DNA of 64,000 nucleotides from Eledone cirrhosa. Its lineage: Eukaryota. The position numbers and the translations under genes were made by a program. Every line of letters starts with the position of its first letter. Positions within the stretch are counted from its first letter, which is position 1. The notes under the pieces are model-generated. The model saw only the letters and a program-made list of their open reading frames with translations. It was not told where the DNA came from and did no database searches. Below, one piece after another: positions 1,278 through 64,000 of this stretch. The stretch lies in the NCBI GenBank assembly GCA_964016885.1, contig OZ024741.1, positions 156,860,001 to 156,924,000 on the forward strand. Reading direction: 5' to 3'.

Positions 1278-1351
<74 letters not shown>

Positions 1352-1354
<3 letters not shown>

Positions 1355-1665
1355 TATAAATGTATCGAACTAGACAAACTGAGTTTGTGCAAGTACGTTG
1401 CATTTTCCCCCTCGCTCAATGAATTCACGGGACACTTCCGAAGCGTCAGTCCGTGATTCAGAGCGTACACATTTAGTTATTAGTGGTAAGTTCGGGATTA
1501 ATTGCGGGTGTAAACAATTTAGCCCGGACTAAACGAAATCGTTGATTTCTACTCCGTGTCCTGAGCACTGCGGTGTAATAATTGCAACCAGTACACAGAA
1601 GCTACGCATTAAATCCAAAATTATTCGGAAGGAATGGACGCGGCCAGAATCAACACAGAATTATA
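1352..1665 (-). mobile_element. Fragment of non-coding PLE-related element between TA repeats
   Basis: Carries GCTC-TGA...TCA-TT-GAGC bulged hairpin (1414-1464, minus) shared with the 19k/30k/41k/58k elements. Confidence 0.5.
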
Positions 1666-2971: not shown

Positions 2972-3056
<85 letters not shown>

Positions 3057-3059
<3 letters not shown>

Positions 3060-3340
3060 AGGGAGTGTAACTTGGAGTTACTGTAGGTTCACCCGGGTGA
3101 GCACTCGATGTTTAGGTTCACTTCAGTGTCGAGGTGTAGAGCTATACAGAGTGTATTATAGTTAAATAAGATAACAAGAACGATTGGTTACTCCTTCATT
3201 ACGTTTATTGGTTGGTGACGCGTGTTTCTCCACTGACCAGCTCAAGGTTCGATATGTATCGATCTGACCTGACTCTCTAACCCGCGGCTCGTCAGACTCC
3301 ATGTAATGTTAATTCCAAAATATAGGGAGAATTAAATCAC
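3057..3340 (-). mobile_element. PLE 3' terminus (degenerate hammerhead 3215-3297 plus tail) in (TA)n
   Basis: Minus strand: CTGACGA...GAAAC-ACGC-GTC then AATAAA; bulged hairpin CACTC-TGT...ACA-TC-GAGTG at 3102-3153. Confidence 0.6.
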
Positions 3341-3379
3341 TTTCAAGGTAACTCTATCTCGTGTTATTATGTTTACAAA

Positions 3380-3702: not shown

Positions 3703-3739
<37 letters not shown>

Positions 3740-3742
<3 letters not shown>

Positions 3743-3941
3743 GAAAAGGTTCAGGACCCGACAGCAGAGCTCAAGCCGTTTCGACGGCTATATCTGGACT
3801 GGAGTCCATAAATACCCGTCGAAACGGCTTGACCTCTACCGTCTGGGTCCTGAACTTTTTCCTTTTACCCACTCTACTACCCAAAGTATCGAGTACTCTG
3901 GTTCGTTATGGTCCACCTGGTTCCTTACCACACTTCCTTCG

Positions 3942-3945
<4 letters not shown>
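3740..3945 (+). mobile_element. ~200-bp fold-back mini-PLE (inverted plus direct terminal piece of the 19.8-23.1k Naiad family)
   Basis: ~60-bp inverted arm then 3' pLTR end and tail homologous to 22982-23122; flanked by (TA)n. Confidence 0.85.
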
Positions 3946-3989
<44 letters not shown>

Positions 3990-3994
<5 letters not shown>

Positions 3995-13778: not shown

Positions 13779-13850
<72 letters not shown>

Positions 13851-13854
<4 letters not shown>

Positions 13855-14525
13855 GACGTAAAATAAGAAAATTTTAAAAATTAAAAATTAACTTACTAAA
13901 ATTTTCACTCCAACTAATTAGTTTCTGTAAGGGTGTAAATATAGTTACGTAACGTAACTACAGAGAATTCCTTACGTCATCAGGGAGTGTATTCTCAGCT
14001 AAGTTCCCAGGCAATGCGCGGACACTAGGAACCCATATAAAAATAATAATTCAGTGGATGGAATAAAGCTAGCGGGGACTAAATTCCAGAGCGCTGAAAA
14101 AAATTCACTGCCTACTGGGTCAGTGGCAAATTCTAAAGAATCAATCACGTGACACTGAGGTTAATCAGTGAGGAGTGGGGTGGTATTATGACAAGAGCCT
14201 ACTACTACTACCATGAACCATAGCAGTAAAATTTGGCAAGTTTTACTCAACAAATAATTTGGAGATAAATATAGAGAATTAGTATATCTACCAACATATG
14301 TATACCGATGTATACCCATGCTAGCAAATATATATGTTATGTCTTAGTACCTTTGTGGTTCTATGCAGGGGGATGCAGAACAATTATATGAAAGACATAA
14401 AATAAGAAAATTTTAAAAATTAAAAATTAACTTACTAAAATTTTCACTCCAAATAATTAGTTTCTGTAAGGGAGTAAATATAATTACGTAACGTAACTAC
14501 AGAGAATTCCTTACGTCATCAGGGA
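13851..14525 (-). mobile_element. Non-coding partial-tandem hammerhead element (retrozyme-like, ~539-nt unit)
   Basis: 135-bp direct repeat 13851-13985 / 14390-14525; no meaningful ORF; abuts (TA)n. Confidence 0.75.
13906..13989 (-). ncRNA. Type I hammerhead ribozyme with extended stem II
   Basis: CACTCC-CTGATGA-c-GTAAGG...CCTTAC-a-GAAAC-TAATTA-GTT-GGAGTG; second, truncated copy at 14445-14525. Confidence 0.75.
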
Positions 14526-18816: not shown

Positions 18817-19800
18817 AGCGAAACTATCGACAGTCGGGACTGGGAGAATTTTTGGTAACGTTTATCTATTTTTTCTTCAAACTTACATTTTTAAGTTAGC
18901 TCCATTTAAAAGTTTATTTGTCTAGTTAATTTCTACGGACTAAGAAGAAAGTCTAGGTAAATATTACCTGACTGTTCCTCATAAAGGATTAGCGATAACA
19001 TTTATCTGTTATTTTTTCAAACTTACATTTTAAACTTAGCGGTGTTTAAATGATTATTTATCTAGTTAATTTCTACGGACTGGGTAAATTTTATCTGATT
19101 GTTCTTCAAACTTATAATTTTAATATAGCTCTGATTAATAAATATGTATTCATTCATTCATTGAGCCACACCACTGAAAGTAGCGAACACTCATATATGT
19201 ATCTGTGACAATGTTTAAATATATATATGTTCTCTATGATTTTGTTCTATACTCCCTTACGGTTGAGTAAACCTTAGGCGGTAACTAACTGCTTCCTCTA
19301 GCAATGAACGTACTTGCCACCGGCTTACCCTTCACAAAAATTCTTAAGCGTTAGCCACTTGATGTTTTTCATCCCTTTTGAAATCGTTACTAACGGCGAT
19401 CGTTTTTGAAATTTCGGTCCTAACTGAAGGAGTCTCTTGATAAGTTCGGGGCCTCAAGAATAATGCAACGATTAAACATTACCAAGAAGTACGAGTGAAA
19501 CTGTCGACAGTCGGGTCTGGGAGAATTTTTGGTAACGTTTATCTAGTTTTTCTTCAAACTTACATTTTAAACTTAGCTCCGTTTAAATAATTACTTCTCT
19601 AGTTAATTTCTCCAGACGAGGAGGAAAAATTAGGTAAATTTTATCTGACTGTTCCTCATAAAAGATTATTGATAACATTTATCTGCTATTTCTTCAAAGC
19701 TGCATTTTAAACTTAGCTCCGTTTAAATGATAATATATCTAGTTAATTTCTACGTTCTAAGAACTGGGTGAATTTTATCTGATTGTTCTTCAAACTTATA

Positions 19801-19805
<5 letters not shown>
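18817..19805 (+). mobile_element. Non-coding partial-tandem hammerhead element (~677-nt unit)
   Basis: 18820-19120 repeated at 19497-19803; internal ~120-bp subrepeats; related to 29863-30852 and 41090-41730; (TA)n flanks. Confidence 0.75.
19431..19518 (+). ncRNA. Hammerhead ribozyme, U3-A8 core variant
   Basis: AGTCTC-TTGATAA-GTTCG...CGAGT-GAAAC-TGTCGACA-GTC-GGG(A/T)CT; homologous to the CTGATGA version at 41364-41440. Confidence 0.7.
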
Positions 19806-19835
<30 letters not shown>

Positions 19836-20249
19836 AAAAAGTATGACCCCGACGGCTGAGCTCAAACCGTTTCGACGGCTATTTCTGGACTAAATTAGAA
19901 TTTTTAGCCTGGTGAATAAATAGCCGAACTTGTCAAGGGGGTACTTCCTTATATGGGAAGATTGTAGTTGTCAAGAGGATTGGTTAAAATTTGTTGTAAA
20001 CACAAATAAGTCTATCATGGCATTTGGTGGGAGATAGGGGTGGCTGAACTTGCCTGTAGAACAATAGGGGAGTGAGTGGAGCGGTCAAGCGTTGAAAGTG
20101 ATATGTATATAGTAGATTCTAAGGATAGTGTATGAAGTGGAGGAGAGAGGTTATAGAACAAGTAAATCGAATGAGTAGGAGACAATAAAAGATAATAGAA
20201 ATAAATAAAAAAAATATATAAAATTAGATAGTGAGAAATGAATAAAAAA

Positions 20250-22235
20250 GAGAGATTCGGATTCAATACCTACAAATCTCCCCCTCCGAACCCTATGCTC
20301 TCACCGTTCGAGAACGACCTTTTCCACCTGGTCGAGAGCATTAAATTCAAACCCAGACACAACAGATTCCTACAACAACTCCGTAGTAAAATTACAGAGT
20401 ATGAAAACACCAACGACATCATGGTGGACTCGGACAAAACTGGAAACCTCTACTTCGTCAACCCTGATAGATACCACACACTGATCAGGAGCAGCCTAAA
20501 CGCCACCTATAAAAAGGCTAACCATTCAATTATCGAGGACATAAATCGAGATGGACAACAAATTACCTCCAGCCTCGGGGTCACCGACCGCTCTGAACCC
20601 CTAGACCCACGGACTCCCTACTTCACACTGAAGGACCACAAATCCGACTTCGACCGCAAACCATCCATTAGGCTTATAAACCCAACGAAGTCGGACATAG
20701 GGAGAATCAGTAAAAAGATCCTAGACCGAGTTATACCAAAAGTTAAGCAAAACGTGAGACTTAGCCTATGGGTCAGCATCCAGGAAGTAATCTCGTGATT
20801 CAGGAATATGGAGGACAAACGAGACACAAAATTCATTCAGTTTGACATAGAGAGTTACTATGCATCTATTACCTTACCGCTCCTTACGGCCGCCTTGGAC
20901 TTTTCCGAAACACTCACACCCATCACTGATCAGGAAAGAAATATCATTCTCCACGCCAGGAAGACAGTCTTACTTTTCGACAACTCCAAGTGGATAAAGA
21001 GAGCTCCTGACTCCCCCTTCGACGTCAGTATGGGCGCGAGGGATTCGGCCGTGGTCACAGATCTTATAGGATTATTCCTACTATTTAAACTCACCGAAAT
21101 GTTTCCTGCATTCCGCGGTGGATTGTACCGGGATGATGGGCTCCTCACCCTTAAAGGGTACAACCCCAGTAGTACAGACCGGGTCCGTAAACAATTAATC
21201 AACTTCTTCTGGGACTGGGGTTTAAAATCACCCTACAAACGTCCCTAACCAGAGTCAATTTCCTGGACGTTACCCTTAACCTCGAAAATGATCTGTACTA
21301 CCCATACAGAAAACCAAACGACAACCTGCACTACATCCACCTCCGCTCTAACTATCCTAGAAACATCACCAATAACCTGGTTAAAAACATCTCCCTCCGC
21401 ATATCTCGTTTGTCCGCTAATGAGCAGATATTCGACGAACACGCGCATCATTACAACCAGGCCCTCAAGCGGAGTGGCTTCCGGGAGGGATTATCCTTTT
21501 ATCCAGCTTCCCTTGACGGAACCAGCAGGCGACACCGCCGCTCACGCAACGTAACGGGGTTCAATCCTCCCCATAATGCCGAGGTGGCAATACCTATCGG
21601 GAAAATCTTCTTTAGACTCCTCGAAAAACACTTCCCACTACAACACCGCTACCACAACATAAACAACAAAAACACCACCAACCTCTCCTACAGCACCACA
21701 TCTAACTTCGCACAAAACATCGTCTCCTCAAACAACAAAAAACTCAACCGCTATGGAAGAAATAACCTAGACATCAGTGGAGAGCCGACCAGGGGGTGTA
21801 ACTGCCCTGATAGATCTACGTGCCCCCTCAACAACAAATGCCGAGAACGTAACGTGATTTACCAGTGCAACATGAGGACGGACACCAACAAAGCTTATAT
21901 AGGATTAACCGCGTGTGACTTCAAGACCCGGCTCTACCAACACCGACATACTTTCCGAAACCCGGTCCGGCGACATGCCACTACACTTTCGGGCCACATC
22001 TGGGACCTCCAAGATAATAATATAACCTACAATCTCACGTGGAGCTTACTGTCCAGAGCTAACTCTTACACGGGAGGACGCCGTCTGTGTAACTTATGCT
22101 CGGAGGAAACATTACAAATGCTGTTTTCGAAGGACCAACACCTAAACAAGAAAGACTAACTGGTAACCGCATGCAAACACAGATTGCGTAGGACTTACCT
22201 CGCCCTCAAACCCCATAACGACCCGGGTGGGTAGA
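20250..22235 (+). pseudogene. Naiad RT-GIY-YIG ORF pseudogene
   Basis: SDKTGNLY, LKDHK, QFDIESYY, LYRDDGL, CNCPDRSTCPLNNKC, VIYQC/YIGLT, CNLC; stops at ~20796 and ~22157, frameshift at ~21230. Confidence 0.9.
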
Positions 22236-22931
22236 CAAGGGCTGATAGCCCCCCCCCCTCTTGCCGAATAAGTTAGGAGAAACCCCAGCTTACATAGGTA
22301 GATGTATCTCTTTTCTTTTCCTCATTGTCTTCTTCTTCCCCCTGTCTCATCCTATCACTTCCTTCCACCCCTATTTTCTTCCTCGTCTGCTTTTTCCCCT
22401 TTCGCCTACCCCGATGTAGCCCATTGGGCCTCTGTAATTTTAAGATAGAATGGGCCCCTGTAATTTTAAGATAGGATTGGCCGAATACGTTTTACTAACT
22501 ACTTATAGCAGACGTGTTAAACCCCTTTTATTTTTGTATCAGTTTTGGTTCTACTCAATTTCTACAAGTTTTTTCTATTCTCAACTTATTAACCTGTAAT
22601 TGTAAAATTGCATTGTGATTTTTTTTTTATTCATTTCTCACTATCTAATTTTATATATTTTTTTATTTCTTTCTATTATCTTTTATTGTCTCCTACTCTC
22701 ATTCGATTTACCTAATCTATAACCTCCCTCCCCCACTTCATACACTATCCTTAGAATCTGCTGTATACATATCACTTTCAACGCTTGACCGCTCCACTCA
22801 CTCCCCTATTGTTCTACAGGCAAGTTCAGCCACCCCTATCTCCCACCAAATGCCATGATAGATTTATTTGTGTTTACAACAAATTTTAACCAATCCTCTT
22901 GACAACTACAATCTTCCCATATAAGGAAGTA

Positions 22932-23027
22932 CCCCCTTGAAAAGTTCGGCTATTTATTCACCAGGCTAAAAATTCTAATTTAGTCCAGAAATAGCCGTCG
23001 AAAAGGCTTGAGCTCAGCCGTCGGGGT
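22932..23027 (+). ncRNA. Hammerhead ribozyme, U3-A8 variant with long stems II and III (inverted copy ~19845-19941)
   Basis: CCCC-TTGA(A/C)AA-G..CGGCTATTT...AAATAGCCG.C-GAAA(C)GGCT-TGAGCTC-AGCCGTC-GGGG. Confidence 0.7.
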
Positions 23028-23689
23028 CATATTTTTTCCTATTTCCCACTCTACTACCCTAAGTATTGAATACTCTGGTGCGTTATGGTCCATCTGGTTC
23101 CTTACCACATTTCCTTTGTTATATATATATAAGAGAGAGTGTTCGGTGTATGTGTGTGCTGCTGCACCTGTTGTTGTTGATAGTTGTTGTGACACCAAAC
23201 TTAGTTTCCAGAAAGTTTTAGTTCTTTGATTTCTATCCAAATTTAGAAAACCCTGGCAACGTTTCATATTGTTTTTTCGGTGAAATACAAGAATGAACTT
23301 TTGTTGTTTTCCTTAACGGCAAAAAATGTTTAATGAAATAATAATAATAATAATAATGATAACTAAAAAAATGAAATTGAGGGAAAGGATAAAGAAGGGA
23401 AAGAGGATGAAAAGTATCAAACATTAACAAAAGACGAAATGAAACGGAAGAAAAATGAGAAAAATACAAAAAATAATGAAATAATAATGAAGATGCGGAG
23501 GAGGAGGGAGGTTGTGGTGGTGGAGAAACAGGAGATGGGTGGAGAAGAATGATGATGATGATGAGGAGGAGGAGGAGGAGGAGGAGGAGGAGGAGGAGGA
23601 GGAGGAGGAGGAGGAGGAGGGGGGAGGAGGAGGATTAGGCACAAAGCCAGCAATTTAGGGACAGGAGGAAGTCGTTTAAATTGGTCCAG

Positions 23690-28437: not shown

Positions 28438-28509
<72 letters not shown>

Positions 28510-28513
<4 letters not shown>

Positions 28514-29495: not shown

Positions 29496-29572
<77 letters not shown>

Positions 29573-29575
<3 letters not shown>

Positions 29576-29846
29576 AAAGTTCTATTTAAATTGTTGGGAT
29601 ACAACAAGCAAATATTTTTATAACTGATATAAAGCACTCAACAAATATTTGGAGTAAAAATACGATATTAACAAATGGAAACTATATTTATAAAACCATA
29701 TTTATTTCATTATACATATTTCAAGGACACCAAGTTAAATTGTGGTGTGCTTTCATCAGATGAAATATAATATAGATCAGTTTTATAAATAAATATTGAC
29801 ATACCCTTAAAGAATGCAACTATTACTGTTGGAAGCTCCCGGATAG
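29573..29846 (-). mobile_element. Naiad-type pLTR end plus tail, hammerhead at 29704-29766
   Basis: Homologous to 8866-9140; ATTTCAT-CTGATGA-AAGcACACCA/TGGTGTcCTT-GAAAT-ATGT-ATA-ATGAAAT. Confidence 0.8.
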
Positions 29847-29862
29847 TATATATATATATATA

Positions 29863-30924
<1,062 letters not shown>

Positions 30925-39890: not shown

Positions 39891-39904
39891 GAGAAAGTGT
39901 CAGA

Positions 39905-42274: not shown

Positions 42275-42321
42275 CTAGACCGAAAAATGCGGGCTCATGT
42301 GTAATAATATTCTTAAATAAT

Positions 42322-42500
42322 AATTGGTTCTACATTTGGCACAAGGCCACCAATTACCCAGTGCATTACTGGTACTTTATTTTATCGACCCCGTAAGATT
42401 GAAAGGCAAAATTAACCTCGACGTGATTTGAACTCAGACCGTAAAGGGACATAACTATGCTGGAAAGCATGGCGTCCGACCCTCTACCGATCCACCGCCC
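42322..42500 (-). mobile_element. Full-length SINE
   Basis: Consensus match; TATTCTTAAATA-type TSD. Confidence 0.85.
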
Positions 42501-46065: not shown

Positions 46066-47076
46066 CAACGCTCGCCAATAAAATCTGGTAGCTTAAAAAC
46101 ACAAATCAGGAATATAGAATTAGCTGGTCTAAATTATCAAGAGCAAAGGCCTACTACAATGGAATGTCCCACTGCAGACTTTGCAATATGGAGCTATTCC
46201 ATATTTTAAGGTACGATAAGATGTTGCTTAAGAGCAAAATAGAAAGATCAATTTTCTGTAGGCATAAAACAGCTACCAGGTTCACAAAGTTCAAACCACC
46301 GTGATTCGAGCCAGCAATCCCAAAATTAGAACTGAACCACCTGCATTTTAACGTACCATCACACTGCTATTAGCAGTCAAACAGCCGACCGGTCACTAGA
46401 TCATAAATCTCTTAACATCTCTTTCACCCTCTCTCCCTGAAACCACATCAACCCCATTAAGACAAGACAATCAGCAAAACATTTACCACACACACTTGTC
46501 AAACCTCTCTTCACCCTCCACCCTTAGCCCTTGGGTCTCACACTAGTATCTCCCAATTAATCTCTAATTTATTGCTTTTTCTTTCATCTGTCACTACCTC
46601 AGACTCTCTACACGTATCTATGTATGGTTCGAATATGACTTTTCATGTTAGCACTAAATCCACCACAGCGTCCTTATACGTACACTTACTCACCACCACC
46701 ATCATATTCTGTACTTATGTGCTCCCACTTATCTTTATTTCTTTATATCTTTATTATTTTTCCATTTTCTTACTTTTTTACTTTATCTTTTTTCTTATCT
46801 TTTACTTTTTACATCTGTAACTTCTTTACCTATTTATCATATATTTTATTATTGCTGTTATTGTTTTGATTATACGCTATTTCTCTATATATATCGTGCC
46901 ATGTATGAATTATTCGCATTCTGATGATTTGGTCAGAGGTAAATAATGTAATAGAGATCGAGTGACGCAACTTCGAGCGATTAGCGGCCTCTAGACTCAC
47001 CTGATCAATGAAACAATTGTTAATACTTGAAATAAAACCCTTTTTGTACAGTCAACCATGTTACTCTTCATTCTTT

Positions 47077-47082
<6 letters not shown>
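46066..47082 (+). mobile_element. Naiad-type PLE 3' fragment with hammerhead 46916-47026
   Basis: TTLANKIW*LK..YRISW..AKAY..CRLCNME..CRH; CTGATGA-TTTGGTCAG...CTGATCAAT-GAAAC-AATT-GTT; (TA)n flanks. Confidence 0.85.
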
Positions 47083-47904: not shown

Positions 47905-49075
47905 CAGTTATTAGATGCAAAATGTTTGGAATGTTTTACATATTTTTACTGTTCCATTAATGGATTGTACTTGTAATTTCCTAACTAGTTGTGTTCTTTC
48001 TGTTCCTGTGAAGCCTACCTTCTCAAGATTTGTATTGAGGCAGTTACTAACATATCCCAGTGCCCCAATAATCACAGGCTTAAATCTGAAGGTGAAATCA
48101 AGGTGGAGTGTCTGCAGATTTCTCATCAGTTCTGCATAAATATTCTCCTTTTCGCTAATCTTTGCTGGACAGCTAACTTCCACTACTGTGCATGCTTTCT
48201 TTTCCCTGTACCATATCATAATATATGGTCTGTTTTGCCTGCATTTTATTGGGGTTTTTACTGGAACATTCCAGCAGTACTCTTTCGTATTATTTATATG
48301 GATGTCTTCCACATTGCTGTAGCTTTTAATGTGTTTATTATCGGGGCTATCTTTTCTACGGATTGCATTGTACAGTGTTTTGGCCACTACATCATGCCTC
48401 ATAGGTAGATAGTACCGCGATGACATCTTTGGACAGCTGCTGATGACATGGGTGACATCTTCGATGTTAATTCTGCAGAGTCTGCACTTGTTATCTAGGT
48501 ATTTTGCCTGCATCCCTATCCCTTTTGTGAATCAGGTATTTCGTGTTAATTTCCTGTTCTTGGATTGCAAAAGCGTATCCTTCAAAGTGGGAGCCAATAT
48601 ATCGGTTGCTGGTCCAAGATAGACTACTTTCTTTATCTATATTACTCTCACTCTGGAGCTTCCTGGCAACATATCCATGCATAATATTTTGCTGATAAGC
48701 ATGCAATTTTTCATCCATGGATTCACTGCGATACTGCTGAGCGACTTCCCTGGGTGTGAGTTTTTGATTATCACACAGGGAATATCTCTCGATTAGTTCC
48801 TTCCCAACTCTCATGATCTTATGTGTTTCATGCTGATAGACTTTCTCGAGAGACGGGTTCCTACGCTTCGAGGTTCGTTGATGTTGTCGGAGGGATGTGA
48901 TGCGACATTCAAATGCTGTCTGGACTGATGTTAGGCCGCTGCCTCCCTACTTACGTTACAAGTAAAGGCGGTCTATGTTACTGTTGATGTGGATGTTTCC
49001 GGTGTTGTTTAGTATTTTTCGAGTTCTAACATCAACTACTCGGATTTCGTCTATCGTCCAATTCAGTATTCTAAA
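47905..49075 (-). mobile_element. R4/Dong-like RLE LINE 3' fragment
   Basis: FAIQEQEINTK, CRLC...HVISSC, MRHD, RPYIMIW..VEVSCP, VIIGALG. Confidence 0.85.
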
Positions 49076-49850: not shown

Positions 49851-49911
49851 ATTAGGATAGTGTACTTTAGTTGTATGTGCATGTGTATATTTCTGTATTA
49901 TTTGGTTTGAA

Positions 49912-50100
49912 AGGGCGGTGGATTGGCAGTATCGGTAGAGGGTCGGACGCCATGCTTTCCAGCATAGTTACGTCCCTTTACCATCTGAGTTCAAATCCCG
50001 CCGAGGTTGACTTTGCCTTTCATCCTTACGGGGTCGATAAAATAAAGTACCAGTAATGCACTGGTAATTGCTGGCCTTGTGCCTAAAGTAGAAACAATTA
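49912..50100 (+). mobile_element. Full-length SINE, 17-bp TSD
   Basis: ATTATTTGGTTTGAAAG duplicated on both sides. Confidence 0.9.
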
Positions 50101-50229
50101 TTTGGTTTGAAAGTTGAAATATATGGTATGACCTTTTATTTCTGTTTTCGTTTTCTTTTCTTTCTTTTGCTTTGTATGAAACCTATTAGGTGTATTGTCT
50201 ATTCTTTACTAATATTTTTCCCTACACAA

Positions 50230-50295
<66 letters not shown>

Positions 50296-50382
50296 ATGTG
50301 TGTGTGTGTTTGTGTAGGGAAAAATAATAGTAAAGATTAGGCAATACACCTAATAGGTTTCATATATATATATATATATATA

Positions 50383-51202: not shown

Positions 51203-51210
<8 letters not shown>
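50524..51210 (+). mobile_element. Non-coding partial-tandem element (~527-nt unit)
   Basis: ~160-bp direct repeat 50524-50687 / 51051-51210; CTGACGA present but no complete hammerhead; ends in (TA)n. Confidence 0.55.
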
Positions 51211-51261
<51 letters not shown>

Positions 51262-51263
<2 letters not shown>

Positions 51264-51451
51264 CAAAGGAGTTGTGGTAAGGAACCGGATGGACCATAAC
51301 GCACCAGAGTACTCAATACTTAGGGTAGTAGAGTGGGAAATAGGAAACTGTATGACCCCGACGGCAGAGCTCAAGCCGTTTCGACGGCTATTTCAGTCCA
51401 GAAATAGCCGTCGAAACGGCTTGAGCTCTGCCGTCGGGGTCATACTTTTTC

Positions 51452-51452
<1 letters not shown>
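51262..51452 (-). mobile_element. Fold-back mini-PLE (23k Naiad family)
   Basis: Tail plus pLTR end, then ~55-bp inverted arm; (TA)n flanks. Confidence 0.85.
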
Positions 51453-51484
<32 letters not shown>

Positions 51485-51492
51485 TATATATA

Positions 51493-51528
<36 letters not shown>

Positions 51529-53572
51529 TAATATAAGATCAAAAGATGGTTAAAGGAGTTCCATATATTTTATTATGCGCATTTCAAAAACAAACATCAT
51601 CAAACAATAATATTTGTGTTTTCATCAGATAAAACAGGAGAACATGATATGAAGGCTAAAAAATACTAGTTGATAGTGCAGTTTTAAATCAACATATGAA
51701 AAGTGGTTTTAGATTGATGTGTGATATTGGGAAAAATATTTTATTTAGAGAGGGGGGGGGAGAGAAGGATGAAAAGGGAAGGAGATGAGAGGGAGAGATG
51801 GGTGATAGAGAGAAAGAGATAGTTTTTATAACTGAGATGAGATATATTTTATATAGAGGGGTTGAAAACCGTTGGAAGATACTGTATAAATTAAAAATTT
51901 TGAAAATTAACGAAGGGAGGATATGTGCGAGGAAAAAATATTTTATTTAGGGAGGGGGGGGGTTGGAAAGGATGAAAAAAAGGGGAGGAGATGAGAGTGA
52001 AGGTGGAAAGGGAGAGATGGGTGATAGAGAGAAAGAGATAGTTTTTATAACTGAGAAAAAGATATAATGTTTTAATATAGAGAGGTTGGGAACCGTTGGA
52101 AGATAATGTATAAATTAAAGGAATTTGAAAATTAACGAAGGGAAATTATGTATGAAGATAGAGAGAAAAAAAAAAAAATAAAAAAATAATAATTGTGGGT
52201 GAATATTCTAACGTCAAAAGAAGAAATGTATGTATTGTGGGAATTTCAAAATTAGCAAAGAGAAAAAAAGTTTATGTGTAGAAGGATTTGAGAAAAATAA
52301 TGTGAAGTTAAAGTTTGTATATTGAATTCATATGTATTAATAATGAGTTCGTTCATATGGTCCTTAAAAGACAAAAACATTAAATATAACATCTTTTGGA
52401 AAAAGATTTCTTCTGCATCCTCATACTTGAACAGCTCTCTATCTAAAATCTGTAATCTCTGCCTAAATGAAAAATTTACCATTATCTCTAACCTAGAATC
52501 CATAATAAATAGACGCTCAGATTTGTTTTCTATCTGCCTGCATAAATTCCATAGAACTTTTCACAAAGTATACAGTTAATATTCAATTCTTTATCAATTT
52601 AGAATCTTTTCTCAAAGGCACATATACATACACCTCTTTAAAATATACCCATCTACCTTACTTTAAAGGGCATTATACACTCTATAATACTCGTTTACTC
52701 ATTACCCTCATTCTATCTTCTCGTAAAACAATAACATTTGTTTTTGACATTTTGAGTATTCATCCGCAATCATTATTATTTTTTCTCTCTATCATAAATC
52801 TTTTTAATCTCAATTTCATCCTTAATTTATTATTATTTTTTTCTCCCCATCAACGAACTCATTATTAATACATATGAATTCAATATACAAACTTTAACTT
52901 CACATTATTTTTCTCAAATCCTTCTACACATAAACTTTTTTTCTCTTTGCTAATTTTGAAATTCCCACAATACATACATTTCTTCTTTTGACGTTAGAAT
53001 ATTCACCCACAATTATTATTTTTTTTTTTTTTTTTTTTTTCTCTCTATCTTCATACATAATTTCCCTTCGTTAATTTTCAAATTCCTTTAATTTATACAT
53101 TATCTTCCAACGGTTCCCAACCTCTCTATATTAAAACATTATATCTTTTTCTCAGTTATAAAAACTATCTCTTTCTCTCTATCACCCATCTCTCCCTTTC
53201 CACCTTCACTCTCATCTCCTCCCCTTTTTTTCATCCTTTCCAACCCCCCCCCTCCCTAAATAAAATATTTTTTCCTCGCACATATCCTCCCTTCGTTAAT
53301 TTTCAAAATGTTTAATTTAAACAGTATCTTCCAACGGTTTTCAACCCCTCTATATAAAATATATCTCATCTCAGTTATAAAAACTATCTCTTTCTCTCTA
53401 TCACCCATCTCTCCCTCTCATCTCCTTCCCTTTTCATCCTTTTCTCCCCCCCCCCTCTCTAAATAAAATATTTTTCCCAATATCACACATCAATCTAAAA
53501 CCACTTTTCATATGTTGATTTAAAACTGCACTATCAACTAGTGTTTTTTAGCCTTCATATCATGTTCTCCTG

Positions 53573-53639
53573 TTTTATCTGATGAAAACACAAATATTAT
53601 TGTTTGATGATGTTTGTTTTTGAAATGCGCATAATAAAA
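53573..53639 (+). ncRNA. Minimal type I hammerhead ribozyme (copies 57468-57534 +, 51568-51634 -)
   Basis: TTTTAT-CTGATGA-~16-bp stem II-GAAAT-GCGC-ATA-ATAAAA. Confidence 0.9.
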
Positions 53640-53845
53640 TATATGGAACTCCTTTAACCATCTTTTGATCTTATATTATGCATACTCCAGTCCCACAAAC
53701 TGTAGAGTGCTTCTTATCCGATATCTGCATTGCTTTATTGTACTACAATAAAACTCACCTCCTACATTAACTTGCTCCTTAACGGTTGAGCGCTTACTCT
53801 CATATTGGATACCTTTTGATGGTCCTTCACCTCTTCTTCTACAAC

Positions 53846-56248
53846 ATGGATTATTACAACATAACCAATTCAACTAAAGATATTCCTATACCTGGTAAAT
53901 CTGAATTCACCAAACTTCTTATTGAAAAAACTGACTCCTTCGTAAGAAGACTTAGATGGACAGCCTATTTCTATGACCAGCGCCTAAAAGGGAACTTTCA
54001 TACCAAAGAACACAACTTCCTCGATCATCTTTTTAATTCTAGACGAAATCCTCCTTCCAACAAAAATCTAGCACAATTCGAGGAAGAATTAACTAAAATT
54101 ATAAAAAATCTTAAATTCAAGAGATACCCTTACAAAGGACAAGAGCACCTTGTAAATCTCAAGAACACAATCTCTAACCTAAATTCCTCAAAAAATGTTT
54201 TAGTCCACTCTGACAAAACCAATAACCTATATGGTATTTCCAAGGATAATTATAACAACCTTATCCTAAAGGAACTTAGGAAAAAGTATCGTAAAACCAA
54301 CCATGAAAATTTAGAATGCATAAACCTTGAAGCCTATGAGATTATGTCAAAACTTGGCATTGAAAAAAAGACCGAACCATTCCTCCCAAGAACTCCGAGG
54401 ATAAATCTCAAGGATCACAAAAACAATTTTCGCACTGAACTACCTGTTAGATTAATCGCCCCCTCTAAATCTGATCTGGGGGTTGTTAGTAAAGCCATCT
54501 TGGATAGGATTATCCCACAGGTTAGTTCTAATTGCTCTTCCTTAAACCTAAATTTATGGTTTGGTACTTCTGAAGTGATTGGCTGGTTCAACAAATTGGA
54601 TAATAAAAACAAACTAAAATTTATTCAATTCGATATTGCCAGCTACTATTCCTCCATTTCGCCTTCACTTCTCAATAATGCTCTATCTTTCGCACTTAAA
54701 TATTCTGACATCACCACAGATGAACTTCACATCATCCTCACCGCACGTAAAACCATCCTAGAGTTCAACAACGAATATTGGACCAGAGCCGATACCTCTA
54801 ACAACTTCGACATCACAATGGGAGCATCCGATTCATCCCAATTGACTGATTTAATTGGTATCTTCATTTTGAACTCTTTGAGTCGGAAAATTCCTCAACT
54901 TCGCGGTGGAATTTATCGTGACGATGGACTCTTTACTATCCTAAATTGCAATATAGTTAAACTTAATATTATTAAGAACAATATACGTAATCTCTTTAAC
55001 CAACATAACCTAAAAATTGAATTTGATAATAGTATCAAACTAGCTAATTTCTTGGATGTAGCTCTTAATCTTGACACTGGCCTATATTACCCTTACCATA
55101 AAAACAATGAGAATCTTAATTATGTTAACTTTAAATCTAACCATCCTACCAATATCAAGAATGCTATAGTTAATAATATTGGAAATAGAATATCTAACAT
55201 ATCTTCTAATAAAAACATCTTTGATGCTAACGCCAATTACTATAATAACGCACTTTCTAAAGCCGGCCATCCAGATAAAATCAAATATAATAAAGAAACA
55301 AATTCTAGGAAAACTTACAGTAGAATATTTAATCATAACCATTCCAATAATTTTAATAAAAGACCTAGATACAAAAACATAATCTGGTATAATGCTCCTT
55401 TCTCCATCTCTATTAATAACAATATTCCTAAATTATTTTTTAGTGCCTTAAATAAATGCTTCCCTCCCTCACATATCTATAGTAAAATATTTAACAAACA
55501 CACCATCAAATTTTCGTATTCTACATCCTACAATATTTCCAACATCATCTCTAAACACAACAACAAAATATTAAATACTAAATCTCTTCCTTCCAATATT
55601 GAATTTCATAATAACAGTAATAGTACTCCTGACGTCATTGTAAACCCTAGGCTAACTTCTGTAAACCCAAATGCAACGTCAAACACAACTTCGCTAAATG
55701 TTCATAATCCAACTCTAAATCAAGAAACTATTATTCCTATTATTCCTATCGCAAACAACTTCTCCAATCCAATTCCTTCTATAGATAACACTAGATCACT
55801 CATTAATAATCTCTCTAATTGCAACTGCCGCATTAAAAATAAATGTCCTCTCAACAACCATTGCCTCGATAAAAACTTAATTTATGAATGTAAAATTATA
55901 ACTAGCACCAATTCCTTCACCTATTTTGGCTCCACTTCCACCTCTTTTAAAGCTCGTCTCTATAATCATCATTCATCTTTCAAATACAAACTTAAAAGAA
56001 CTAACACTGCTCTCTCAGAACTCATATGGTCCTTAAAAGACAAAAACATTAAATATAACATCTTTTGGAAAAAGATTTCTTCTGCATCCCCATACTTGAA
56101 CAGCTCTCTATCTAAAATCTGTAATCTCTGCCTAAATGAAAAATTTACCATTATCTCTAACCTAGAATCCATAATAAATAGACGCTCAGATTTGTTTTCT
56201 ATCTGCCTGCATAAATTCCATAGAACTTTTCACAAAGTATACAGTTAA
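53846..56248 (+). CDS. Intact PLE polyprotein: reverse transcriptase, CxCx5Cx5C Zn finger and GIY-YIG endonuclease (Naiad type)
   Basis: Open 800 aa from ATG 53846; STKDIPIP, RRLRW, SDKT, LKDHK, QFDIASYY, MGA, IYRDDGL, NFLDV, WYNAPFS, CNCRIKNKCPLNNHC, LIYEC/YFGST, CNLCLNEK, CLH. Confidence 0.93.
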   Translation: MDYYNITNSTKDIPIPGKSEFTKLLIEKTDSFVRRLRWTAYFYDQRLKGNFHTKEHNFLDHLFNSRRNPPSNKNLAQFEEELTKIIKNLKFKRYPYKGQEHLVNLKNTISNLNSSKNVLVHSDKTNNLYGISKDNYNNLILKELRKKYRKTNHENLECINLEAYEIMSKLGIEKKTEPFLPRTPRINLKDHKNNFRTELPVRLIAPSKSDLGVVSKAILDRIIPQVSSNCSSLNLNLWFGTSEVIGWFNKLDNKNKLKFIQFDIASYYSSISPSLLNNALSFALKYSDITTDELHIILTARKTILEFNNEYWTRADTSNNFDITMGASDSSQLTDLIGIFILNSLSRKIPQLRGGIYRDDGLFTILNCNIVKLNIIKNNIRNLFNQHNLKIEFDNSIKLANFLDVALNLDTGLYYPYHKNNENLNYVNFKSNHPTNIKNAIVNNIGNRISNISSNKNIFDANANYYNNALSKAGHPDKIKYNKETNSRKTYSRIFNHNHSNNFNKRPRYKNIIWYNAPFSISINNNIPKLFFSALNKCFPPSHIYSKIFNKHTIKFSYSTSYNISNIISKHNNKILNTKSLPSNIEFHNNSNSTPDVIVNPRLTSVNPNATSNTTSLNVHNPTLNQETIIPIIPIANNFSNPIPSIDNTRSLINNLSNCNCRIKNKCPLNNHCLDKNLIYECKIITSTNSFTYFGSTSTSFKARLYNHHSSFKYKLKRTNTALSELIWSLKDKNIKYNIFWKKISSASPYLNSSLSKICNLCLNEKFTIISNLESIINRRSDLFSICLHKFHRTFHKVYS

Positions 56249-57695
56249 TATTCAATTCTTTATCAATTTAGAATCTTTTCTCAAAGGCACATATACATAC
56301 ACCTCTTTAAAATATACCCATCTACCTTACTTTAAAGGGCATTATACACTCTATAATACTCGTTTACTCATTACCCTCATTCTATCTTCTCGTAAAACAA
56401 TAACATTTGTTTTTGACATTTTGAATATTCATCCGCAATCATTATTATTTTTCCTCTCTATCATAAATCTTTTTAATCTCAATTTCATCCTTAATTTATT
56501 ATTATATTTTTTTTAATATATACTCATATATTCTTTAAAATATACCCATCTACCTTACTTTAAAGGGCATTATACACTCTATAATACTCGTTTACTCATT
56601 ACCCTCATTCTATCTTCTCGTAAAACAATAACATTTGTTTTTGACATTTTGAGTATTCATCCGCAATCATTATTATTTTTTCTCTCTATCATAAATCTTT
56701 TTAATCTCAATTTCATCCTTAATTTATTATTATTTTTTTCTCCCCATCAACGAACTCATTATTAATGCATATGAATTCAATATACAAACTTTAACTTCAC
56801 ATTATTTTTCTCAAATCCTTCTACACATAAACTTTTTTTCTCTTTGCTAATTTTGAAATTCCCACAATACATACATTTCTTCTTTTGACGTTAGAATATT
56901 CACCCACAATTATTATTTTTTTTTTTTTTTTTTTTTCTCTCTATCTTCATACATAATTTCCCTTCGTTAATTTTCAAATTCCTTTAATTTATACATTATC
57001 TTCCAACGGTTCCCAACCTCTCTATATTAAAACATTATATCTTTTTCTCAGTTATAAAAACTATCTCTTTCTCTCTATCACCCATCTCTCCCTTTCCACC
57101 TTCACTCTCATCTCCTCCCCTTTTTTTCATCCTTTCCAACCCCCCCCCCTCCCTAAATAAAATATTTTTTCCTCGCACATATCCTCCCTTCGTTAATTTT
57201 CAAAATTTTTAATTTATACAGTATCTTCCAACGGTTTTCAACCCCTCTATATAAAATATATCTCCTCTCAGTTATAAAAACTATCTCTTTCTCTCTATCA
57301 CCCATCTCTCCCTCTCATCTCCTTCCCTTTTCATCCTTTTCTTCCCCCCCTCTCTAAATAAAATATTTTTCCCAATATCACACATCAATCTAAAACCACT
57401 TTTCATATGTTGATTTAAAACTGCACTATCAACTAGTGTTTTTTAGCCTTCATATCATGTTCTCCTGTTTTATCTGATGAAAACACAAATATTATTGTTT
57501 GATGATGTTTGTTTTTGAAATGCGCATAATAAAATATATGGAACTCCTTTAACCATCTTTTGATCTTATATTATGCATACTCCAGTCCCACAAACTGTAG
57601 AGTGCTTCTTATCCGATATCTGCATTGCTTTATTGTACTACAATAAAACTCACCTCCTACATATATATATATACATATATATATATGTATGTATG

Positions 57696-57754
<59 letters not shown>

Positions 57755-57759
<5 letters not shown>

Positions 57760-58484
57760 GAATAATCGAGAATCGGAAAGTCAGCTTACGAATTTACGAT
57801 TAACAAAGTCGATATGCGTAGCAGGGGGCTCAATAATTTGGGTAAATCAGAGCTATAACTATCGTTAAAATGCTAACACATAGAGATCATGTCTAAAATC
57901 ACCCAACAGCCGAGAGAACGACCAGGAAGATTCGGGTTAACTCAAATAAAATATCAATAAATCAATAAATTAAATGAATATAAAAACTTACCCGGACCCG
58001 CTAGAAAGATGTTAAATCTAGCTTCATGGGTTTCTGCAATTCCTTACTCCGATCACTATCAGCCCACATAAAAAATATATATGAGACTTCTAGAGAAGGG
58101 GGGACGGTGGAAAAGCTTCTTCAACGGGAAATCCGTCCGATAATGAGAAGTAACCCCGTAGCTAAATACGCACATGGTTTTCAGCAAGGGAGATAACCTC
58201 CACATTAGCGAAAAAATCTTCGGTAATGTGTAAATCTCGTAAAAATACAAAATATCACATATCGAATCAGAGTGCTCGATGGACGTGTTAAAATAAACAA
58301 GAGCCATTCATCAGTCAATAAGATCGACATAGAACGATAAAATTAACTGGTCAATGGCTAACATCTAGAGCTAAATATAGTAGAATAATCGAGAATCGGA
58401 AAGTCAGCTTACGAATTTACGATAAACAAAGTCGATATGCGTAGCAGAGGGCTCAATAATTTGGGTAAATCAGAGCTATAACTA
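57755..58484 (-). mobile_element. Non-coding partial-tandem element (~623-nt unit), related to the 30k/41k family
   Basis: ~107-bp direct repeat 57755-57862 / 58378-58484 carrying the GCTC-TGA..TTA-TT-GAGC hairpin; hammerhead degenerate; (TA)n flanks. Confidence 0.65.
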
Positions 58485-58496
58485 TATATATATATA

Positions 58497-59045
58497 TTTC
58501 TTTTCTTTTCAATGGCTGACAATACCTTACCGGCGCCACTCGAATAAATTACCGGTGCCACAGCTTGAGATCGGTGTGGAAGTCGGACCTTCGTAGAGAC
58601 CTGAAAATCCGCCTCTTCATTTCTGTAGTGGAGTCTGTGCTGCTGTATGGGTCTGAGACTTGGACACTGACCAAGAAACTCACTCAGATGGTGGATGGGT
58701 GCTACACGAGAATGCTGAGGATGGCTCTGAACATTAATCAGTATACACTGAGGATGAAAAACTCAGAGCTATATGGGAGCATCCTAAAAGTCAGCTCAAA
58801 AGTGACACAGAGGAGACTGAGGTTGGCTGGACATGCTCACCGACATCCAGAGTTGACATTGCACTCAGTGCTCCTTTGGGAGCCCCTACATGGACACACT
58901 AGAAGAGGAAGACCAAGGTTAACATATGTTGATGCCCTAAGGACAGACACTGGTCTGTTGGAGATGCAGGATATGGCAGCGATAATGAGGGACAGAGACC
59001 GCTGGAGAGAACTCGTCCATGGATCTCGGGAATTTTACCCGCCTT

Positions 59046-59047
<2 letters not shown>
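58497..59047 (+). mobile_element. 5'-truncated RTE copy with an inverted 5'-UTR fragment
   Basis: 58556-59047 matches 13144-13633; ~58504-58548 is the inverse of 10512-10556. Confidence 0.85.
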
Positions 59048-59117
<70 letters not shown>

Positions 59118-59119
<2 letters not shown>

Positions 59120-59842
59120 GATAAGTTATCGTTATAGGTAATGCAGTTAGAGGTTGTGAGTACTCTGCGTCGTGGATAGTTTTAACGTACGGCTTTGTTT
59201 GACTCAACAAGATGTTTCCATAGTTATGCAGGGAGTTCGCGGTAATTCTTATGCAGGTTATACTTGGAGTAATAATAGTAAAAGAATGAAGAGTAACATG
59301 GTTGGCTGCACAATAAGGGGCATTATTTCAAGTACTGACAATTGTTTCATTGATCAGGTGAGTCTAGATGTCACTAATCGCTTGAAGTTACGTCACTCGA
59401 TCTCCAATACATTATTTAACTCTGATCAACACATCAGAGTACGGAGATATAAAAATAATTCACTCGAGGCAAGATACATATAGAAGAGTAGCGTATAATC
59501 AAAGCAATAACATCAATAATAAAATATATATGGTAAATAGGTAGAAAAGTTACAGATGTAAAAATAAAAAGTAAAAGATAAGATAGGATACAATAAAAAT
59601 GTAAGAAAATAAGAAAATAGGAAATATAAATAAATAAATAAGGATAAGTGAGAGCTTGTAAGTACAGAGTATGTTTGTGGTGGTGGTGAGTAAGTGTTCT
59701 TATAAGGATTCTTTGGTGGGTTTATTGCTAACATGAAAAGCTATATGTATCTTGCCTCGAGTGAATTATTTTTATATCTATGTACTCTGTTGATCAGAGG
59801 TAAATAATGTATTGGAGATCGAGTGACGCAACTTCAAGCGAA
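59118..59842 (-). mobile_element. Naiad-type pLTR plus ~157-nt tail (46-47k family) with short inversion
   Basis: Inverse of 46640-47082; hammerhead 59332-59442 (GTACT/AGTAC stem I); 59743-59842 inverted. Confidence 0.8.
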
Positions 59843-60457: not shown

Positions 60458-60521
<64 letters not shown>

Positions 60522-60526
<5 letters not shown>

Positions 60527-60713
60527 GAAGGAAATGTGGTAAGGAACCAGGTGGACCATAACGCACCAAAGTACTCAATACTTAGGGTAGTAGAGTGGGT
60601 AATAAGAACAAGTAAGACCCCGAAGACTGAGCTCAAGCCCTTTCGACGGCTAATTCTGGTCCAGAATTAGCCGTCGAAACGGCTTGAGCTCAGCCGTCGG
60701 GGTCTTACTGGTT

Positions 60714-60718
<5 letters not shown>
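60522..60718 (-). mobile_element. Fold-back mini-PLE (23k Naiad family)
   Basis: Tail plus pLTR end plus ~60-bp inverted arm; (TA)n flanks. Confidence 0.85.
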
Positions 60719-60758
<40 letters not shown>

Positions 60759-60764
60759 ATCTGT

Positions 60765-63700: not shown

Positions 63701-64000
63701 ATTGCTATTTCTTCAGTCTTCTCTCCATTTTTTTATTCCTTGGTCCATTTATCTATCTCTATCATTTCGCCCAGAATCCAATCTTTAATTTTTCTATTCG
63801 ATAATTCTATCGTATTTTTCAAAACTAATCTTGTATTTTTTATGTTTGTTAAATTATGTCCAAAATACTTGGAACTTATTTAAACGTTAACTTTCTTGCC
63901 ATTTCTTCACTCTTCTCTCCATTTTTTATTACCTGGTCCATTCATATAACTGTATCATTTCGCCCAGAATCCAATCCTAGCTTTTTCTATTAGAAAATTC
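60765..64000. repeat. Complex tandem satellite (~195-bp A unit interspersed with ~170-bp B unit)
   Basis: A units near 60853, 61210, 61406, 61829, 62192, 62390, 62597, 62949, 63145, 63352, 63707, 63902; B units near 61041, 61586, 62017, 62781, 63535. Confidence 0.9.

What the first reader, a model, noticed from the sequence alone, without database searches (positions are those of the whole stretch)
53680..53791. Conserved 2-nt-bulged hairpin sits just 3' of the mappable Naiad-type insertion end-points: candidate RT-positioning RNA element
Seen (RNA-sense): a hairpin N-YTC-[inner stem-loop]-(TT/TA/TC bulge)-GAR-N recurs in otherwise unalignable families with covarying inner stems. Instances: TACTC-cagt/actg-TA-GAGTG (53683-53709); GCTC-ct/gg-TT-GAGC (53774-53791); CACTC-tact/agta-TT-GAGTA (51310-51335, 60572-60597; GAATA variant 23047-23072; TC bulge 3870-3895); TACTC-caaa/tttg-TT-GAGTG (29635-29656); 8930-8951; ACTC-caag/cttg-TT-GAGT (59202-59270); GTTC-tgca/tgca-TA-GAAC (14358-14381); GCTC-tga/tca-TT-GAGC (19128-19166, 30505-30540, 57828-57853, 1414-1464); cc/gg-TT versions (19250-19269, 30374-30393, 41608-41627); 3102-3153. 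Where an end-point can be mapped onto an uninterrupted copy it lies about 2-8 nt 5' of such a hairpin (53680, 53767, 23042, 47082/59276, 13851/14390, 19803/19122, 29863, 30852). Inference: the PLE RT binds this bulged stem and starts target-primed reverse transcription internally, just upstream, and non-coding elements parasitise it by carrying the motif. Internal initiation is known for PLEs, but I do not know of this motif being described.
Basis: partly seen in the sequence, partly recalled or inferred. Interest (0 to 1): 0.92.

Follow-up and report, generated by a model that had tools for sequence, protein, structure and literature searches.

The report
Twin hairpins set retrotransposon insertion ends
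A small bulged hairpin, present twice in Hydra-type Penelope-like retrotransposons and in non-coding repeats that appear to ride on them, marks where each inserted copy ends, and probably tells the reverse transcriptase where to start copying.

Summary
All 18 hairpins parse. Consensus: an AU-rich run, GCUC-[free stem-loop]-UH bulge-GAGC, then ACU. It occurs twice (H1, H2) between the hammerhead ribozyme and the ORF.

Conservation: 28 of 35 unrelated metagenome Hydra leaders carry it, against 2 of 35 on the antisense strand. The inner stem covaries only with a 2-nt bulge: 52 of 54 paired, against 0, 1 and 8 in other registers.

Position: copies end in (TA)n a few bases 5' of H1 or H2 in seven window families (145 and 105 ends). 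In 50 of 52 inverted two-armed insertions, one arm ends at each hairpin. Three families using one site give no such insertions.

Best model (inferred, untested): the PLE protein, probably a dimer, binds both hairpins and primes from both cut target strands. This would explain the PLE 'tail', the inverted arms and trans-mobilisation of retrozyme-like repeats. RNA versus DNA action is unresolved. Eight literature searches found no description.

The parts
53846..56248 (+). Intact 800-aa Hydra-clade PLE ORF (RT, C-terminal GIY-YIG) of family A; tandem unit about 3.66 kb
53573..53639 (+). Minimal type I hammerhead ribozyme with palindromic stem III; predicted cut after 53633
   Evidence: core scan; position; activity not tested
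53676..53680 (+). End site 1: 29 genomic 3' ends into (TA)n
53683..53709 (+). Hairpin H1 (outer ACUC/GAGU, 4-bp inner stem, UA bulge)
53766..53770 (+). End site 2: 19 genomic 3' ends; 53680-53767 is the 'tail'
   Evidence: loose ends at 53767/53769 in run X3
53774..53791 (+). Hairpin H2 (GCUC/GAGC, C-G plus U-G inner pairs, UU bulge), 55 nt before the ATG
51523..52356 (-). Inverted arm of the family A insertion, ending at site 1 in (TA)n
56249..57662 (+). 3' UTR / pLTR of family A with hammerhead and H1 copy (57579-57603), ending at site 2 in (TA)n
19831..23131 (+). Family B Hydra PLE: inverted arm 19831-20249 (site 1), broken 5'-truncated ORF 20235-22198, H1 23047-23072, end at site 2. H2 is seen in read-through copies L159, L400, L401.
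3709..3994 (.). Short two-armed family B-type copy with H1 3870-3895; similar copies at 51207-51476 and 60469-60744
29552..29857 (-). Family C 3' fragment: hammerhead, H1 29635-29656, site-2 end; sister copy 8847-9147 (H1 8930-8951). H2 and an ORF start are seen in related copy L402.
29857..30856 (-). Family D non-coding hammerhead repeat (tandem period 690-881): H1 30505-30540 (mirror 30705-30740), H2 30374-30393; one arm at each site; relative at 41075-41743
13846..14525 (-).
59116..59746 (-). Family F 3' end with long H1 59202-59270 and site-2 end; site-1 copy 46633-47082 (+). Autonomous: H2 and an ORF start are seen in L210.
18817..19811 (+). Family G non-coding repeat (period 677): H1 19128-19166 used; H2 19250-19269 unused in 18 ends
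57749..58486 (-). Family J non-coding repeat (period 624): H1 57828-57853 unused; all 20 ends lie just 5' of a long H2 (about 58273-58371)
1350..1662 (-). Family H, single-armed copies with a fixed 5' end: hairpin 1414-1464, ends about 55-60 nt after it; no read-through copy seen
3050..3335 (-). Family I: H1 3102-3153 with site-1 ends, and a second end about 95 nt after H1 start; H2 not seen

Best explanation
The bulged hairpin is the cis-acting recognition and positioning element of Hydra-clade PLE reverse transcriptase, and it works as a pair.

Shown in sequence: the order hammerhead - H1 - H2 - ORF; an invariant CUC/GAG outer stem, a U-led 2-nt 3' bulge and an ACU flank, with a free inner stem-loop; copies end just 5' of H1 or H2 at an AU microhomology with (TA)n; inverted insertions use one of each.

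Inferred steps: (1) the element protein, probably a dimer, binds H1 and H2 on RNA; (2) its GIY-YIG domain cuts both strands of a (TA)n tract; (3) each 3'-OH pairs with an AU 4-9 nt upstream of one hairpin and primes internal reverse transcription toward the 5' end, so a hairpin is never copied by the enzyme it positions; (4) the two cDNAs join by microhomology, giving head-to-head arms with a 'tail' (H1 plus spacer) on one arm only; (5) full-length copies need read-through into a downstream pLTR or a circle, while initiation on the mRNA's own leader gives the abundant short copies; (6) non-coding hammerhead repeats carry the same pair and are mobilised in trans.
For: Motif in 28 of 35 unrelated Hydra leaders, against 2 of 35 antisense, 0-1 of 32-34 ORF interiors and a shuffle mean of 1.35.

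With anchors chosen by sequence only, the first inner pair forms in 52 of 54 at bulge 2 (C-G 35, U-A 16), against 0, 1 and 8 of 54 at bulges 0, 1 and 3. The structure count gives 92% paired against 80.6% shuffled, 0 of 500 shuffles as high.

Ends are bimodal in seven families (145 + 105). A second end predicted an unseen H2 that was then found in read-through copies of B, E, F, J and C. 12 of 16 junction rows in foreign contigs lie within -5..+3 of a hairpin start, plus one more in L083.

50 of 52 inverted insertions are mixed, against 49% expected (p 9e-14). One-site families have 0 of 46 ends in inverted pairs, against 101 of 250. Arms overlap by 1-15 nt in 22 of 31 inner junctions. AU lies within -9..-4 in 41 of 51 hairpins, against 38% background.

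Poseidon PAc initiates internally at two sites bounding the tail, needs RNA 3' of them, extends both strands and is modelled as a dimer (PMC11167929).
Against: No biochemistry was done; no structure or complex prediction could be run, so the dimer is untested here.

Strand is unresolved: embedded G.U against A.C pairs were 2 against 1; the outer closing pair shows 4 A.C (a wobble only on the antisense strand) and 0 G.U; stable tetraloops were 4 sense against 0 antisense.

Three good-looking hairpins are unused (57853, 19250, 1464), and the one at 1464 has an AU at -8/-7, so hairpin plus AU is not sufficient. In the longer local fold, H2 of family A forms only its outer stem.

4 of 16 foreign rows miss (-84, -22, +31, one spurious), and 2 of the 12 hits were read by eye. 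2 of 52 pairs are site2+site2. The one-site contrast rests on 3 families. Loci are the best-scoring 25-30 of 40 scored candidates, not a random sample. RNA runs were uninformative. One of 6 published Hydra consensi shows no clear hairpin and 2 show variants (by eye).
Confidence: 0.68

Rival explanations
1. The hairpins act in DNA. Reverse transcription starts further 3', the cDNA (antisense strand) folds the hairpin, and the GIY-YIG domain cuts beside it to resolve the intermediate into (TA)n.
For: Craig 2021 ascribes the tail to endonuclease-mediated resolution. The D. virilis endonuclease needed the tail for cleavage (as cited). Four A.C closing pairs would be wobbles on the antisense strand.
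Against: In PAc the tail ends coincide with measured RT start sites. The AU microhomology fits priming. Stable tetraloops read on the sense strand, 4 against 0.
Confidence: 0.14
2. The hairpins direct RNA cleavage a few bases upstream, by the element protein or a host nuclease. This makes two RNA 3' ends that are then copied by ordinary end-primed TPRT.
For: It predicts the same genomic ends. The PAc supplement was cited for RNA-seq read ends at the same sites.
Against: PAc initiated internally on intact templates regardless of 3' extension. Cleavage alone does not readily explain why 50 of 52 two-armed insertions use one of each site.
Confidence: 0.1
3. The hairpins are translational-operator or packaging sites in the mRNA leader, and the ends fall nearby only because AU-rich linkers offer microhomology.
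For: H2 lies 20-50 nt before the ORF in 21 two-hairpin leaders; three hairpins have no ends.
Against: Non-coding D, E, G and J keep the hairpins (longest ORFs 21-82 aa). Ends are sharp although AU is common throughout the leader. Mixed pairing of arms. The role may coexist with the main one.
Confidence: 0.06
4. Artefact or descent: the two-armed copies are a MITE-like unit amplified whole, and the motif is shared ancestry or chance.
For: Long inverted arms in TA resemble MITEs; copies within a family are not independent.
Against: Inner junctions differ from copy to copy. The motif recurs with compensatory changes in proteins only 33-40% identical. Shuffle and antisense controls.
Confidence: 0.02

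Closest known systems
Hydra clade of Penelope-like elements (Craig et al. 2021, PMC8557442; abstract, passages, section 11 and supplement parts 1, 2, 52, 53 read)
   Same: C-terminal GIY-YIG, RW, DKT, CxCX5C, hammerhead, (TA)n targets, and a tail at one end of inverted insertions.
   Different: The paper text has no mention of a hairpin (0 hits), although the motif is visible in its consensi. Tails here are 78-164 nt, against the 30-40 bp stated there for Naiads and PLEs generally.
Poseidon PAc internal initiation (Frangieh et al. 2024, PMC11167929; main text parts 1-2 of 4 and text of supplements 1-2 read)
   Same: Two internal start sites bounding the tail, AT-rich target, both strands extended, predicted dimer, hammerhead cleavage not required.
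   Different: Different clade; starts lie inside the ORF in an 'AC-rich stem loop'; no conserved binding motif was defined; the RNA letters of its Fig. S1 show no GCUC/UH/GAGC hairpin (by eye); two-strand pairing of the sites was not shown.
Animal non-LTR retrozymes (PMC7229834, passages; bioRxiv 10.64898/2026.07.22.740005, parts 1-3 of 5)
   Same: Non-coding tandem repeats with type I hammerheads, proposed to be mobilised by PLEs.
   Different: Those papers leave the mechanism open and name no cis signal; here the shared signal and shared end offsets are visible. The supplements could not be read.
LINE/SINE shared 3' stem-loops (e.g. eel UnaL2/UnaSINE1) and L1 twin priming (recalled, no call)
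   Same: An RNA stem-loop recognised by RT and borrowed by non-autonomous partners; two primers from one target giving an inversion.
   Different: Here the hairpin lies 3' of the start and is left out of the copy it positions, it is doubled, and both arms copy overlapping RNA from fixed sites.

Membership tests
Naiad PLE | GIY-YIG endonuclease N-terminal to RT | tested here: not met
   RT YRDDG at aa 357, GIY-YIG at aa 679; definition
Naiad PLE | DKA motif; no canonical hammerhead | tested here: not met
   SDKT at aa 122; hammerhead at 53573-53639
Hydra PLE | C-terminal endonuclease, single ORF | tested here: met
Hydra PLE | RWK motif present, GxKF/Y absent, DKT | tested here: met
   RLRWT (RWK in most homologues), no GxK[FY] match, SDKT
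Hydra PLE | CxCX5C linker; CxxC and CxH around the conserved E and N; no CX2-5CxxC | tested here: met
Hydra PLE | Hammerhead in the pLTR and insertion into (TA)n | tested here: met
   cleavage activity not tested
Hydra PLE | Generally shorter than 3 kb | tested here: not met
   Tandem period about 3,657 bp; a descriptive, not diagnostic, trait
Hydra PLE | Groups with Hydra reference proteins in an RT tree | not tested
   Reference proteins were not available as tool sequences
Non-LTR retrozyme (families D, E, G, J) | Non-coding tandem repeat with a type I hammerhead in each unit | tested here: met
   Periods 523-881 nt, longest ORFs 21-82 aa; hammerhead cores read by eye and located; G and J cores are atypical
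Non-LTR retrozyme (families D, E, G, J) | Self-cleavage and circular RNA in vivo | not testable with these tools
   No raw RNA reads; the one read-laying run was on family A and was uninformative
Any Rfam family | Covariance-model match | tested here: not met
   No hit over any hairpin at E<=1; the 58 matches were sub-threshold, mostly on microsatellites
RT-binding initiation element | Binds RT and sets the cDNA start | not testable with these tools
   Needs EMSA and TPRT assays

The most novel reading that the evidence does not exclude
Hydra PLEs integrate by programmed double priming. A dimeric telomerase-related RT binds two copies of a roughly 25-nt portable RNA tag and starts two cDNAs, one from each strand of a cut (TA)n. 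This one design would account for the PLE tail, the head-to-head inversions, the excess of short pLTR copies and the mobilisation of retrozymes, and any RNA placed upstream of the tag pair would be insertable.
Probability: 0.5. Interest if true: 0.9.

Novelty: new variant of a known kind. Interest (0 to 1): 0.82.

Why it matters
How Penelope-like elements choose their start site, and why they leave tails and inverted arms, is stated as open in the papers read. This finding supplies a defined, clade-wide RNA motif and a rule (one hairpin per end, one of each per inverted insertion) that can be tested directly with an intact young ORF from this window. It also names the signal that retrozyme-like repeats would borrow. 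It gives annotators a marker for a class of repeats with at least 15,786 exact sub-pattern matches in this genome. PLE RTs are the closest relatives of telomerase RT, so a stem that fixes where templating begins bears on telomerase evolution. A short portable tag could also be useful for RNA-templated gene insertion.

Tried and rejected
Searches that found nothing:
- Rfam: no family over the motif.
- Pfam: no family for three PLE reading frames.
- PDB by sequence profile: 0 hits.
- Viral contigs: no relatives.
- Earlier scan findings: none in two look-ups.

Tools and data that gave no usable result:
- RNA runs X1/X2 held only a small share and gave no evidence on expression, strand or circles. 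The depth drop in X3 after 53767 (about 888,000 to 12,800) is summed contig depth and only a weak hint.
- A control search for other PLE clades in this genome could not be run (family not in the library), so clade specificity rests on a 9-mer search of published consensi. That search misses line-wrapped and variant sites.

Analyses corrected or set aside:
- One search's family D counts were spoiled by an internal (TA)n and redone; D pair counts differ between those two runs (9+1 and 5+1).
- Family G 'other' ends are internal-repeat artefacts.
- Three mis-anchored instances of 54 were kept but left out of alignment A2.

Ideas tested and not supported:
- That templates are mainly hammerhead-cleaved: most arms span the cut site, and only a few per family begin within about 10 nt of it.
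- Wobble-pair and tetraloop tests of strand were inconclusive.
- A simple rule 'hairpin plus AU means used' fails for 1414-1464.

Literature not seen: Lunse 2017 was not held; the supplements of PMC7229834 and the bioRxiv retrozyme paper could not be read and could contain the motif.

Full report
SETTING. The window is G000:C2:156860001-156924000 of an unnamed 3.0-Gb animal genome, dense with repeats inserted into (TA)n. The ORF 53846-56248 encodes 800 aa with RT first and GIY-YIG last, and carries RLRWT, SDKT, CxCX5C, CxxC..E and N..CxH. These are the features that define the Hydra clade in Craig et al. 2021 (section 11 read); Naiads have an N-terminal endonuclease. The 'Naiad-type' label is therefore wrong. 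No tree was built.

OBSERVATION. All 18 instances parse on the element-sense strand. Motif counts in the window exceed 20 local dinucleotide shuffles at all four stringencies, for example 16 against 4.5+-1.7. One exact sub-pattern has 15,786 genome matches against 50 for its reversed control. Rfam has no match over the hairpins.

ENDS IN THIS GENOME. I fetched 25-30 best-scoring copies per search for ten families (two searches for A). Except, the queries lay upstream of the ends. I classed 3' ends that run into a microsatellite within -22..+4 of H1 or a slightly wider window at H2. Site1/site2 counts were A 29/19, B 19/17, C 23/17, D 21/20, E 21/16, F 18/9, I 14/7, G 18/0, H 0/8, J 0/20. Ends outside these classes were few: A 1, B 3, D 2, E 5, F 6. 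BLAST end modes are sharp, for example A -5/-8 and -7/-5, F -5 and -5. Modes at -1 to +3 reflect extension through TA-like bases; by eye the shared AU/UAU lies 4-9 nt before the hairpin. For C, H and I, site 2 was defined by offset because the window has no read-through copy.

PREDICTION TEST. Where a second end had no known hairpin, read-through copies supplied one 5-8 nt downstream: B (L159), E (L235 and window about 14245-14265), F (L210, followed by an ORF start), J (long hairpin) and C (L402, a 79%-identical relative). None was found for H or I. Twenty further genome matches were hand-picked for diversity from the first 100 listed. Of these, 17 fit the layout by eye: a (TA)n or other end 55-110 nt downstream, read-through to a second hairpin, or H2 with H1 upstream and an ORF start downstream. 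L403, L406 and L407 do not fit.

OTHER ORGANISMS. A metagenome scan gave 78 loci with Hydra-type ORFs. 51 leaders had at least 140 nt upstream and collapsed to 35 clusters. The strict motif was in 28 of 35 (twice in 12), against 2 of 35 antisense, 0/34, 1/34, 0/34 and 0/32 in ORF interiors, and 1.35 (max 5) in 100 shuffles. Bulges of 0, 1, 2 and 3 nt gave 0, 1, 23 and 4 leaders. To avoid circularity I anchored on GCTC...GAGC alone: 54 instances in 29 leaders. The first inner pair formed in 52 of 54 with a 2-nt bulge, against 0, 1 and 8 of 54 otherwise, as C-G (35) or U-A (16). Pairs 2 and 3 formed in 34 of 50 and 28 of 37, with 0 of 5,000 permutations as high. Bulges were UU 35, UA 9, UC 8; the 3' flank was A 47, C 52, U 51 of 54. 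In 21 two-hairpin leaders H1-H2 spacing was 55-83 nt and H2 lay 20-50 nt before the ORF. The pair-count tool agreed on 51 of these plus two window hairpins (92% paired, 0 of 500 shuffles; slid controls 19-55%); relatedness can inflate that control. The three core outer pairs never vary, which suggests sequence-specific reading by a protein (inference). Mapping 3' copies onto leaders gave 16 rows that were neither tandem nor contig ends. 12 end within -5..+3 of a hairpin start (two read by eye), three miss and one is spurious; a second element in L083 adds another at -3. In the six published Hydra consensi, by eye, three show perfect hairpins (coral Hydra-2_Amil; sea cucumber Hydra-1_Ajap, twice, and Hydra-2_Ajap), two show variants and Hydra-1_Obim none clear. 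Five exact 9-mers gave 8 hits in that supplement: four in Hydra hairpins, one in the Naiad file and three in Chlamys, none of the last four in such a hairpin in the passages shown.

THE PAIR RULE. Of 52 head-to-head two-armed insertions, 50 have one arm at site 1 and one at site 2; independence predicts 49% (p 9e-14). The window's own A, B and D insertions follow it. Inner junctions differ between copies and overlap by 1-15 nt in 22 of 31, so these are separate events joined at microhomologies. Families G, H and J, which use one site, have 0 of 46 ends in inverted pairs, against 101 of 250 for the other seven; at family level this is only 3 against 7. That a tail sits on one arm only was known (PMC8557442; PMC3846280 passages); that each arm's end is set by its own hairpin was not found in print.

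NON-CODING PARTNERS. D, E, G and J are tandem units of 523-881 nt with longest ORFs of 21-82 aa, hammerhead cores (partly by eye), the same hairpin pair and the same ends. They fit the description of non-LTR retrozymes, whose PLE dependence is proposed but mechanistically open.

MECHANISM. The best reading is RNA recognition with internal, doubled target priming, as set out under Best explanation. It borrows from Poseidon PAc, which starts at two internal sites bounding the tail, needs RNA 3' of them, extends both strands and is modelled as a dimer. AU enrichment at -9..-4 (41 of 51 against 38%) fits a primer ending in AT. 5' ends cluster 95-140 nt upstream of the hammerhead cut in A, C and I, which may mark a start site and would explain the many short copies; this is inference, and query placement biases it. 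Most arms span the cut, so templates are mostly uncleaved. Against the model: no biochemistry, unresolved strand, three unused hairpins, and non-random locus sampling.

NOVELTY. Eight full-text searches and targeted reading of nine papers (whole text of none; parts as stated in Closest known systems; passages only for PMC4209133, PMC13282606, PMC5737381, PMC10085705, PMC3846280, PMC7229834) found no description of this motif or of the pair rule. Subscription papers, Repbase notes and unread supplements could hold it. The host elements and two-site initiation are known, so I rate it a new variant of a known kind: an undescribed, doubled cis-element that lies outside the copy it positions. Interest 0.82.

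Noticed in passing
L083:437-461 and window 53684-53708: H2 of a metagenome element shares a 21-nt core with window H1, with the closing pair switched from A-U to G-C, although the proteins are only about 37% identical. Possible module exchange or unusual conservation.
   Followed up: no
window about 22940-23035: The family B hammerhead looks like the U3-A8 core variant described for Schistosoma PLEs (PMC4209133); read by eye.
   Followed up: partly
L392:149-608: A 100%-identical 460-bp tail-to-tail palindrome centred on a (TA)n tract, with both arms ending at site 2; not explained by the pair rule.
   Followed up: no
window 1350-1662: Family H has a fixed 5' end near 1662 in most copies, is always single-armed, and its hairpin lacks site-1 ends. 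It may be SINE-like or a permanently truncated partner.
   Followed up: partly
L204, L227, L240, L244, L257, L273: Some E, F and G copies end in (TC)n or (CA)n rather than (TA)n.
   Followed up: no
metagenome leaders: H1 and H2 differ: the first inner pair is U-A in 13 of 21 H1 but C-G in 20 of 21 H2, suggesting non-equivalent sites.
   Followed up: partly
L099 leader, L112 3' region, Hydra-1_Crog: Variant hairpins with a changed outer stem or bulge but the same downstream RCT flank; possibly a subclade with altered specificity.
   Followed up: no
window 50175-50364: A 190-bp near-perfect inverted repeat around a microsatellite; MITE-like or an old fold-back.
   Followed up: no
window 403-513, 3353-3580, 26196-26610, 27239-27444, 28489-28696, 39733-39897, 42302-42491, 49895-50108: An abundant SINE-like repeat of about 200 nt, in about a dozen copies.
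   Followed up: no
window 10604-13528, 15014-17007, 35094-36904, 47911-48946, 58520-59047: Broken non-LTR (LINE) reading frames of several kinds; clade names not tested.
   Followed up: no
window 60758-64000: A satellite-like array with a period of about 190-200 bp and higher-order repeats.
   Followed up: no
window 55590-55815: An Asn/Ser/Pro-rich insert of about 70 aa before the CxCX5C linker, absent from all 20 aligned homologues; it recalls the N-rich inserts of rotifer Penelope ORFs.
   Followed up: no
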